Virus record (IMG/VR): IMGVR_UViG_3300042731_007955
DNA: 11,679 bases
Origin: a virus
Strand: one strand, 5' to 3'
The position numbers and the translations under genes were made by a program. Under the pieces are notes generated by a model. It searched no databases, was not told the origin of the DNA, and saw only the letters and a list, made by a program, of their open reading frames with translations. Positions 3,733 to 4,294 of the stretch are shown in pieces; the stretch's first letter is position 1, and the number at the start of each line of letters is the position of its first letter.

Positions 3733-4044
3733 ATGTTGGTGTTGGCAAGGAGTCTTGACGAATCGATCATTATCGATGACAAAATTAACGTCAAGGTAGT
3801 CCAAATCCTCGGTGACAGAGTTCGCTTGGGTATTGAGGCTCCAAGGGATATTGAGGTACACCGAGAAGAAGTGGTCAGAAGGATCAAAGCAGAAAGGGCA
3901 GCAAATGAAAACCGTCAAAGTCAGAAAAGAGGAAGCTCTGGCGATTCTCAAGAGAAACCGCGCCGAGCATCGAGAGATTTTCGAAGAAGCCGTCGAGGGA
4001 TATCGAAAGGCGGTAACGGCTCATCTGGAACACATGCTCGCTGA
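3733..4044 (+). CDS. csrA: CsrA/RsmA-family carbon-storage (post-transcriptional) regulator homolog; about 60 aa conserved core plus about 40 aa basic R/S/G-rich tail
   Basis: MLVLARSLDESIIIDDKINVKVVQILGDRVRLGIEAPRDIEVHREEVVRRIKAER aligns residue-by-residue with E. coli CsrA ([55 protein letters not shown]). There is no stop until 4044, so the 3' part overlaps the next gene. Confidence 0.8.
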   Translation: MLVLARSLDESIIIDDKINVKVVQILGDRVRLGIEAPRDIEVHREEVVRRIKAERAANENRQSQKRGSSGDSQEKPRRASRDFRRSRRGISKGGNGSSGTHAR

Positions 4045-4294
4045 TATCAAGGCGGGCAAGCGCATCGAGCATCAAATCCGGCTGGCTCAACCAACCGATC
4101 AAACCAAGGAATATGATCGGGCAATCAAGATGTTGGAAATGAGCGTCGATGACGAAATTGAATTGGATGAGCGTTCATTTGCAAACTTCATCATGGACGA
4201 TTGGTCATGGATGGATCAGTTCTTACTGTCGAATACCCGGTATTCACCGAAGGCTGCCCAACTATCCAAGAGTCGTCCATCTGAGGAATGGTAA
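3905..4294 (+). CDS. hypothetical helical K/E-rich protein (129 aa), MKTVKVRKEEALAILKRNRAEH...
   Basis: The track ORF 3812-4294 begins out of frame inside the CsrA core. ATG 3905 falls exactly where CsrA homology ends. An alternative start is ATG 4034. Confidence 0.5.
   Translation: MKTVKVRKEEALAILKRNRAEHREIFEEAVEGYRKAVTAHLEHMLADIKAGKRIEHQIRLAQPTDQTKEYDRAIKMLEMSVDDEIELDERSFANFIMDDWSWMDQFLLSNTRYSPKAAQLSKSRPSEEW

What the first reader, a model, noticed from the sequence alone, without database searches (positions are those of the whole stretch)
3733..4294. CsrA-family regulator with a 40-aa basic tail encoded in overlap with the downstream gene
The first ~58 residues are an unmistakable CsrA/RsmA fold sequence (ML-x-L-x-R...VR-x-GI-x-AP...VHREE...RI-x-AE), so the element carries its own global RNA-binding regulator. 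Such a protein could retarget host Csr/Rsm-controlled mRNAs or act on the element's own GGA-containing leaders. The frame has no stop at the canonical position and continues for ~40 R/S/G-rich codons to 4044. It overlaps out-of-frame with a well-formed downstream ORF that starts at 3905, exactly where CsrA homology ends. The possible explanations are an authentic dual-coded overlap, an intrinsically disordered C-terminal extension, a programmed frameshift, or a sequencing or assembly frameshift.
Basis: partly seen in the sequence, partly recalled or inferred. Interest (0 to 1): 0.6.

Follow-up and report, generated by a model that had tools for sequence, protein, structure and literature searches.

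The report
Phage csrA gene overrunning its neighbour
A phage-like contig carries an intact CsrA RNA-binding regulator whose gene has no stop codon of its own, so it runs 140 bases out of frame into the next gene; related phages show this is real, but the resulting 46-residue basic tail looks like an unselected by-product.

Summary
ORF 3733-4044 encodes 103 aa. Residues 1 to about 57 are a full CsrA domain (Pfam 73 bits; two NCBIfam equivalogs above cut-off; E. coli CsrA 1Y00 at E=1e-12). The frame stays open for 46 more codons, of which 57% are R, S or G (net charge +9), and overlaps gene X (3905-4294) by 140 nt.

X is a real gene that starts at 3905. It belongs to phrog_34511, has 64 homologues with a conserved Met1, and its AlphaFold model has pLDDT 95, including the residues in the overlap.

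csrA sits directly upstream of X only in X's closest relatives. In L087 there is a gap of about 135 nt. In L004 csrA stops 2 nt before X. In L006 and L005 csrA reads into X by 29 and 245 nt, in the same frame relation as here. These are diverged sequences from different samples, so an assembly frameshift is very unlikely. No slippery heptamer is present.

Tail length is not conserved. Window-versus-L005 substitutions in the overlap follow X's codon positions, and synonymous change is not reduced there. The tail is predicted to be disordered.

One point stays open: the stop-free run is longer than expected (window P about 0.03-0.18; L005 about 0.002-0.08).

Phage CsrA is already known. This is an ordinary family member with an unusual gene junction.

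The parts
3610..3706 (+). tRNA-Ser(GGA). It lies 26 nt upstream of csrA and is probably co-transcribed with it. The same tRNA-Ser(cga)/tRNA-Ser(gga) - csrA - X - tRNA-Ala(cgc) order is found in relative L006.
   Evidence: ARAGORN
3707..3732 (+). Short csrA leader with Shine-Dalgarno-like GAAAGG. CAAGGAUG spans the start codon (3728-3735).
   Evidence: Sequence. The motif count is not above chance. No significant fold (z=+1.5).
3733..3903 (+). CsrA/RsmA domain, residues 1-57. It has the beta strands plus a C-terminal helix, and L2, L4, R6, V42, R44 and E46 are conserved.
   Evidence: Pfam, PHROG and NCBIfam hits; PDB alignment; invariant columns in A1; AlphaFold pLDDT 85-93
3904..4044 (+). Non-conserved, arginine/serine/glycine-rich C-terminal tail of CsrA (residues 58-103) plus the TGA stop. 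It is read in the -1 frame of gene X.
   Evidence: Open frame. No homologue covers it. pLDDT is about 50-60. The substitution pattern follows X's frame.
3892..3898 (+). Shine-Dalgarno-like GAAAGGG for gene X. It lies inside the last codons of the CsrA domain, 6 nt before the ATG.
   Evidence: Sequence. Equivalent AAGGAG/GGAAAGG elements occur in L004, L005 and L006.
3905..4294 (+). Gene X, 129 aa. It is a conserved hypothetical protein of large phages (phrog_34511) and its true start is ATG 3905.
   Evidence: PHROG E=2.6e-26. 64 homologues with Met1 nearly invariant. AlphaFold pLDDT 95, with strand 4-7 and helix 8-49. The public gene call P0025 is identical.
3906..3908 (+). TGA in the third frame, forming ATGA with X's start codon. 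csrA cannot use it because it is one base out of register.
   Evidence: ATGA-type 4-nt overlaps with X are used by upstream genes in L167, L168 and L171.

Best explanation
This is an authentic gene overlap in a large-phage genome fragment. The phage encodes a complete CsrA/RsmA-type RNA-binding regulator. In the lineage that holds the window, L005 and L006, the csrA-X junction has no csrA stop codon. The csrA frame passes through X's start as xAT-GAA. Ribosomes translating csrA therefore continue in the -1 frame of X until the first chance stop, here 46 codons later. The tail's basic R/S/G-rich composition is largely what that frame of X's K/E/R/A-rich N-terminal helix encodes. The tail is disordered, is not conserved in length or sequence, and is most likely tolerated rather than selected, because the CsrA C-terminus is naturally variable. 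X starts independently from its own Shine-Dalgarno-like site inside csrA. Shown: the CsrA domain is intact, the overlap is real and recurs in relatives, and selection is visible only on X's frame. Inferred: the CsrA domain dimerises, binds GGA-containing RNAs of host or phage, and changes their translation, as characterised CsrA proteins do.
For: CsrA identity; conserved L2, L4, R6, R44, E46. X is real and starts at 3905: and L003, where X follows a tRNA with no csrA. Among about 170 fetched X loci, csrA lies directly upstream of X only in the window, L004, L005, L006 and L087. The junctions form a series: a gap of about 135 nt (L087), a stop 2 nt before the ATG (L004), a 29-nt overlap (L006), 140 nt (window) and 245 nt (L005). 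The three overlapping cases share the same frame offset. L005 and L006 come from different sequencing runs, and the L005 overlap region is about 70% identical in DNA to the window. Between the window and L005, differences in the overlap fall 9/10/23 of 46 at X codon positions 1/2/3, against 24/18/47 of 83 in the rest of X. Synonymous differences among identical residues are 0.44 in the overlap and 0.48 in the rest. Tail identity is 41% against 70% for X over the same bases. The -1 frame of the first 46 codons of 108 other X genes is also enriched in R (13.7%), G (12.2%) and S (9.1%) and has a median net charge of +3.5. Unrelated upstream genes also run into X in the same frame: L170 about 74 nt, L146 170 nt, L153 80 nt, L030 68 nt. 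The tail has pLDDT of about 50-60 and no secondary structure after residue 67.
Against: The stop-free run is longer than neutral expectation. For the window, P=0.027 with synonymous codons resampled from window codon usage and 0.10 with the gene's own codons permuted. For L005, P=0.002-0.003. Among GC-matched X genes without csrA, only 6% are open for 46 codons or more and none for 81 or more (n=31). Over all GC contents the figures are 18% and 8%. The window's tail is more R/S/G-rich (57%) and more basic (+9) than the family average for that frame (35%, +3.5). No expression, read-level or protein data exist. The host is unknown. No RNA targets were identified.
Confidence: 0.72

Rival explanations
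1. The long basic disordered tail is itself selected. It might add non-specific RNA affinity, serve as a partner-binding surface as the C-terminal extension of Bacillus-type CsrA does for FliW, or tune stability. On this view the overlap is a genuine dual-coding region.
For: Stop codons are depleted in the csrA frame inside X: window P=0.03-0.10, L005 P=0.002-0.003; GC-matched family null 6% and 0%. The tail is more basic and more R/S/G-rich than the family's average alternative frame. CsrA-family proteins of 100-121 aa with low-complexity tails recur in the representative library. C-terminal extensions of CsrA are functional in other lineages (PMC7366521).
Against: Tail length varies from 0 to 81 codons among the five csrA-X relatives; L004 and L087 stop at 69 and 73 aa and L006 at 67 aa. 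Synonymous change in X is not reduced within the overlap, and tail identity is 41% against 70% for X. No homologue of the tail was found. Non-CsrA upstream genes show the same run-on into X. There are only three overlapping cases, and the window was selected for its long overlap.
Confidence: 0.15
2. An assembly or sequencing error dropped one base near 3893-3905. The true csrA would then end at TGA 3906-3908 (for example ...AERAAK*, 58 aa) in a classical ATGA overlap with X.
For: A TGA in the third frame overlaps X's ATG. ATGA coupling to X is used by upstream genes in L167, L168 and L171. Short A and G runs lie at 3893-3898 and 3903-3905.
Against: L005 and L006, assembled from other samples and diverged in sequence (L005 about 30% at the DNA level in the overlap), have exactly the same one-base offset between csrA and X, also with an unused ATGA. 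The homopolymers are only 3 nt long. ATGA occurs at 57% of X starts, so its presence here is uninformative.
Confidence: 0.05
3. Programmed recoding. A -1 ribosomal frameshift before 3906 would yield a canonical 58-aa CsrA ending at TGA 3906. Alternatively a +1 shift would yield a CsrA-X fusion, with the 103-aa product as one of two isoforms.
For: The geometry allows both: X's frame is open from 3800 and the third frame stops at 3906. The frame relation is conserved in three relatives.
Against: There is no X_XXY_YYZ slippery heptamer in the csrA frame of the window or L006, and none upstream of the ATG in L005. The junction has no significant RNA structure (z=0.48). No CsrA-X fusion protein appears among the X homologues; the N-terminal extensions of the longer members inspected show no CsrA sequence. 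A-runs are at most 5 nt, too short for transcriptional slippage.
Confidence: 0.03
4. The overlap is much smaller, because X really starts at the internal ATG 4034 (Met44), 8 nt before the csrA stop. The overlap would then be only 11 nt.
For: ATG 4034-4036 is in X's frame just upstream of TGA 4042.
Against: Residues 1-43 of X are conserved across 64 homologues, with Met1, N18, H22, F26, A29, G32, Y33 and L41 nearly invariant. They match phrog_34511 from profile position 6 and form a confidently modelled strand and long helix (pLDDT 95-98). Met44 is not conserved.
Confidence: 0.02

Closest known systems
Phage- and plasmid-encoded CsrA/RsmA homologues (phrog_9500; surveys in PMC8450108 and PMC7366521)
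   Same: The 57-residue core has all the hallmark residues. It is carried by a phage-like element and presumably redirects GGA-dependent translation control. PHROG 'CsrA-like regulator' matches at E=9e-20.
   Different: The gene has no stop at the usual 60-80 aa position and carries a 46-aa alternative-frame tail. It sits in the tRNA-gene region of an uncultured large phage of unknown host. Cultured-phage CsrAs are only 43-47% identical.
CsrA proteins with functional C-terminal extensions (Bacillus, Campylobacter and Helicobacter CsrA bound by FliW, PDB 5DMB; plasmid pMBA19a CsrA with an extra helix)
   Same: Extra residues follow the C-terminal helix, a region described as highly variable among taxa (PMC7366521). 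5DMB aligns over residues 2-66.
   Different: Those extensions are conserved, short (about 10-25 aa) and encoded in their own reading frame. No FliW-like gene was seen here, and the neighbour X has an unrelated, uncharacterised fold. This tail is not conserved even among the closest relatives.
Overprinted or run-on gene overlaps in compact phage genomes, and ATGA-type translational coupling (general knowledge)
   Same: The overlap is same-strand and out of frame, created where an upstream gene lacks a stop before the next start. X's start commonly overlaps upstream genes by 4 nt or more.
   Different: At 140 nt (245 nt in L005) the overlap is far longer than the usual 1-4 nt. The overprinted part shows no constraint of its own, unlike classical dual-coding genes.

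Membership tests
CsrA/RsmA family (PF02599; TIGR00202; NF002469) | Profile match above the curated cut-offs | tested here: met
   PF02599 73.3 bits against 27. NF002469 81.2 against 73 and TIGR00202 70.8 against 70.1. phrog_9500 E=9e-20.
CsrA/RsmA family (PF02599; TIGR00202; NF002469) | RNA-binding residues of strand 1 and of the strand 5/helix region. R44 is essential (PMC7366521). L2, L4, R6, R7, V40, V42 and I47 are recalled from mutagenesis of E. coli CsrA. | tested here: met
   The alignment to 1Y00 and the invariant columns of A1 show L2, L4, R6, V42, R44 and E46 present. Conservative changes are V40->I and I47->V. R7 is Ser.
CsrA/RsmA family (PF02599; TIGR00202; NF002469) | Five-strand plus C-terminal-helix fold forming an interdigitated homodimer | tested here: inconclusive
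   The AlphaFold monomer model has strands at 11-14, 18-26 and 29-35 and a helix at 45-67, with pLDDT 85-93 over residues 1-60. The dimer was not modelled.
CsrA/RsmA family (PF02599; TIGR00202; NF002469) | Binding of GGA motifs in mRNA leaders or sponge RNAs | not testable with these tools
   There is one CAAGGAUG at its own start, at chance level. No Csr/Rsm sponge RNA is present in the window (Rfam finds tRNAs only).
CsrA/RsmA family (PF02599; TIGR00202; NF002469) | Typical length of about 55-80 aa | tested here: not met
   The protein is 103 aa. Most close homologues (19 of 24) are 60-79 aa. However, 100-121-aa members exist among the 50% representatives.
Dual-coding (overprinted) gene overlap under selection in both frames | Both reading frames show independent evidence of purifying selection | tested here: not met
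   X's frame shows it: differences of 9/10/23 at codon positions 1/2/3. The tail frame does not: 41% identity, and synonymous change of 0.44 in the overlap against 0.48 outside. Stop depletion is the only hint.
Programmed -1 ribosomal frameshift site | X_XXY_YYZ slippery heptamer in the upstream frame, with a downstream structure | tested here: not met
   The csrA frame of the window and of L006 has no heptamer. The junction fold has z=0.48.
phrog_34511 (gene X) | Full-length profile match including the N-terminus | tested here: met
   E=2.6e-26, residues 1-114 on profile positions 6-119 of 126. 64 homologues. The fold resembles the Pseudomonas phage pf16 protein A0A1S5R439, TM 0.75.

The most novel reading that the evidence does not exclude
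In this phage lineage the loss of the csrA stop has been exploited. Selection keeps the alternative frame of X free of stops, so that CsrA carries a long arginine-rich disordered tail (46 aa here, 81 aa in L005). The tail would change the regulator's RNA affinity, target range or partner binding. That would be a recently born, composition-selected protein segment overprinted on a conserved gene.
Probability: 0.13. Interest if true: 0.55.

Novelty: new member of a known kind. Interest (0 to 1): 0.3.

Why it matters
Phage-borne CsrA regulators are already documented as likely tools for reprogramming host translation and possibly for suppressing CRISPR-Cas (PMC8450108). This case adds an uncultured large-phage lineage. 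It also makes a practical point. Regulators in such junctions can therefore be missed systematically. The series of junctions in relatives (gap, abutting, and overlaps of 29, 140 and 245 nt) is a clear natural example of how a stop-less junction creates variable C-terminal extensions by overprinting. If the weak signal of stop avoidance proved real, it would be a tractable case of de novo birth of a disordered RNA-binding tail.

Tried and rejected
1. I looked for the exact proteins on public contigs and found none. The contig's own X appears only as P0025.

2. DNA similarity to cultured phages found only tRNA-like matches.

3. I searched for CsrA relatives that share the tail. None was found among 24 word-index hits or the 150 best of 16,829 HMMER hits. 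The tail of P0182 resembles NGSSGTHAR, but its tblastn match to the alternative frames of X (E=0.02-0.2) is no better than the control tails.

4. I tested whether L004's csrA tail is a duplicated relic of X's 5' end. Local alignment gives P of about 0.05 against the window and is not significant against the others, so I dropped the idea.

5. I folded the csrA leaders and the X junction of four loci to look for GGA hairpins. No fold is better than shuffles. CANGGATG occurs 2 times against 2.2 expected.

6. An Rfam scan for a Csr/Rsm sponge or other RNA found only tRNAs.

7. I asked whether X might be a FliW- or CesT-like partner of CsrA. Its confident model has no PDB match. X is widespread without csrA: about 165 of 170 loci.

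8. The promoter and terminator scan found nothing above chance.

9. The extra look-ups of X neighbours (L167-L173) added no further csrA-X junctions.

Full report
**1. What is in the sequence**

The window is a phage-like, single-strand-coded fragment. It has ten tRNA genes interleaved with small ORFs.

The ORF at 3733-4044 (+) encodes 103 aa. Residues 1 to about 57 are a complete CsrA/RsmA domain:
- Pfam PF02599 scores 73.3 bits against a cut-off of 27.
- PHROG 'CsrA-like regulator' matches at E=9e-20.
- Two NCBIfam CsrA equivalog models score above their cut-offs.
- E. coli CsrA 1Y00 aligns over residues 1-57 at E=1e-12, and Pseudomonas RsmE 2JPP aligns over 1-63.
- L2, L4, R6, R44 and E46, which are invariant among the relatives, are present.

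The frame has no stop between 3718 and TGA 4042. Forty-six further residues are therefore encoded: NENRQSQKRGSSGDSQEKPRRASRDFRRSRRGISKGGNGSSGTHAR. R, S and G make up 57% of them and the net charge is +9.

An ORF with its ATG at 3905 and its stop at 4294 lies one base ahead of the CsrA frame. It overlaps csrA by 140 nt.

**2. The downstream ORF (gene X) is real and starts at 3905**

- Its 129-aa product matches phrog_34511 from the profile's N-terminus (E=2.6e-26).
- It has 64 homologues in the public protein collection. One of them, P0025, is the public gene call for this very 11,679-bp contig.
- In the family alignment Met1 and many residues of the first 43 positions are nearly invariant.
- AlphaFold models the whole protein at pLDDT 95, including strand 4-7 and helix 8-49, which are encoded in the overlap.
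- In L003 the homologue follows a tRNA-Arg gene with no csrA, yet keeps the same N-terminus.

A later start at the internal ATG 4034 is therefore rejected.

The fold has no solved counterpart. It resembles an uncharacterised protein of Pseudomonas phage pf16. tblastn finds the family in large cultured phages of Stenotrophomonas, Ralstonia, Pseudomonas and Vibrio.

**3. Evidence from relatives**

I fetched about 170 loci that encode X and scanned all six frames of each with a CsrA profile. csrA lies directly upstream of X only in the window and in X's closest relatives (61-68% identity). The junctions form a series:

| Locus | csrA-X junction | Source |
|---|---|---|
| L087 | csrA (73 aa) ends about 135 nt before X | |
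| L004 | csrA (69 aa) stops 2 nt before X's ATG | |
| L006 | csrA (67 aa) reads 29 nt into X | |
| window | csrA reads 140 nt into X | |
| L005 | csrA reads 245 nt into X (81 codons past the ATG) | |

In the three overlapping cases the frame relation is identical. The csrA codon is xAT, followed by GAA (AAT-GAA, GAT-GAA and CAT-GAA).

L006 also shares the wider gene order: exonuclease, tRNA-Ser(cga), tRNA-Ser(gga), csrA, X, tRNA-Ala(cgc).

These sequences come from different samples and assemblers. X is 63-68% identical in protein between them, and the L005 overlap region differs from the window by about 30% in DNA. An assembly frameshift would have to recur in all three, so it is very unlikely.

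The third frame does hold a TGA that forms ATGA with X's start, and other upstream genes use such an ATGA. But ATGA occurs at 57% of X starts, so it says little here.

No slippery heptamer lies in the csrA frame, and the junction has no significant structure. Programmed frameshifting has no support.

**4. Is the tail selected?**

Evidence against selection:
- No homologue matches the tail.
- Its length ranges from 0 to 81 codons among five relatives.
- Between the window and L005, differences in the overlap fall 9/10/23 of 46 at X's codon positions 1/2/3. The rest of X shows the same periodicity, 24/18/47 of 83.
- Synonymous differences among identical X residues are 0.44 inside the overlap and 0.48 outside.
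- The tail is 41% identical where X is 70% identical.
- The same alternative frame of 108 other X genes is also rich in R, G and S and positively charged. The tail's character therefore largely follows from X's Lys/Glu/Arg/Ala-rich helix.
- Unrelated upstream genes also run into X in this frame: L170 about 74 nt, L146 170 nt, L153 80 nt, L030 68 nt.
- AlphaFold gives the tail low confidence and no structure beyond residue 67.

Evidence for selection:
- The stop-free runs are longer than expected. For the window, P=0.027 or 0.10 depending on the synonymous-codon null. For L005, P=0.002-0.003.
- Among GC-matched X genes, 6% reach 46 open codons and none reaches 81 (n=31). Over all GC contents the figures are 18% and 8%.

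With three cases, one of which was chosen for its long overlap, I treat this as an unexplained hint. I give a selected tail a probability of about 0.13-0.15.

**5. Most likely mechanism**

Shown:
- The CsrA core is intact.
- The run-on into X is real and inherited.
- Selection is visible on X's frame only.

Inferred from established knowledge of the family: the core dimerises and binds GGA motifs in host or phage transcripts, and so alters their translation. The gene is probably co-transcribed with the tRNA genes, and X initiates from its own GAAAGGG site inside csrA.

I found no specific targets. The CAAGGAUG at csrA's own start is a single chance-level match. No leader folds better than shuffles. 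Rfam finds only tRNAs.

**6. Comparison with what is known**

CsrA/RsmA genes in phages, plasmids and integrative elements have been surveyed (PMC7366521, PMC8450108). Those surveys describe the CsrA C-terminus as highly variable. In FliW-containing bacteria it is a partner-binding extension.

This protein passes the family's sequence tests and fails only the usual length. Its tail differs from known extensions in three ways: it is encoded out of frame over a conserved neighbour, it is not conserved, and it shows no detectable constraint.

It is therefore a new member of a known kind, with an unusual but explicable junction.

The practical lesson concerns annotation. The public catalogue holds X from this contig but not CsrA, most likely because the overlap exceeds gene-caller limits.

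Noticed in passing
window 8704-11286 (+): An 860-aa protein with a major-vault-protein shoulder domain (PF11978, 87 bits) and a Vault_3 repeat (PF17795). It has no PHROG or NCBIfam match. A vault-like protein on a phage-like contig is unusual.
   Followed up: no
window 174-11428 (+); L006 2179-3459: Ten tRNA genes (Gln, three Ser, three Ala, three Arg), all on the + strand, are interleaved with one to three small ORFs each. Several ORF ends abut or overlap tRNA genes; for example ORF 4288-4650 overlaps tRNA-Ala 4641-4713 by 10 nt and overlaps X's end by 7 nt. L006 keeps the order tRNA-Ser(cga), tRNA-Ser(gga), csrA, X, tRNA-Ala(cgc).
   Followed up: partly
window 3733-4044: The csrA product of this contig is absent from the public protein collection, while the overlapping X gene (P0025) is present. 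The gene caller apparently discarded csrA because of the 140-nt same-strand overlap.
   Followed up: partly
L170 392-820; also L146, L153, L030, L064: Upstream genes unrelated to CsrA (142 to over 300 codons) also lack a stop before X. They run 62-170 nt into X in the same -1 frame, so the 5' end of X is a recurrent landing zone for run-on upstream genes.
   Followed up: partly
P0089-P0132 (representative library); P0013: The highest-scoring relatives of this CsrA are proteins with two CsrA domains in one chain (two matched stretches, 120-300 aa). These are single-chain tandem CsrAs.
   Followed up: no
P0182 (121 aa): The core of this CsrA closely resembles the L004 phage CsrA. Its 65-aa low-complexity tail contains NGSTGTHGS, against NGSSGTHAR in the window. 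It may be another read-through into an X gene, but the similarity is not significant (E=0.02-0.2, like the controls) and its DNA could not be fetched.
   Followed up: partly
L006 2472-2888: The csrA frame in L006 is open for 71 codons upstream of the canonical MLVLSR start, and this stretch contains a CPKC motif. The public call is 138 aa. It may be an N-terminal extension or an in-frame upstream small ORF.
   Followed up: no
L087 2866-3000: The roughly 135-nt spacer between csrA and X in L087 contains a tRNA T-arm-like stretch (GAGTTCGAATCTCG) that ARAGORN does not call. It may be a decayed tRNA gene between the two genes.
   Followed up: no
window 3580-3608 and 3728-3735: A promoter-like TTGACT-17-AATAAT (10 of 12 matches) lies just upstream of tRNA-Ser(gga), and CAAGGAUG spans the csrA start codon. 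The latter resembles the high-affinity CsrA site as I recall it. Neither is above chance expectation.
   Followed up: partly
window 1803-2828 (+): An Rv2179c-like 3'-5' exoribonuclease domain (PF16473; phrog_192) follows a cysteine-rich N-terminal region. The listed ORF start (TTG 1803) lies inside tRNA-Ala 1757-1829, so the real start is probably later. A similar RNase_T-like gene precedes the tRNA-Ser pair in L006.
   Followed up: no
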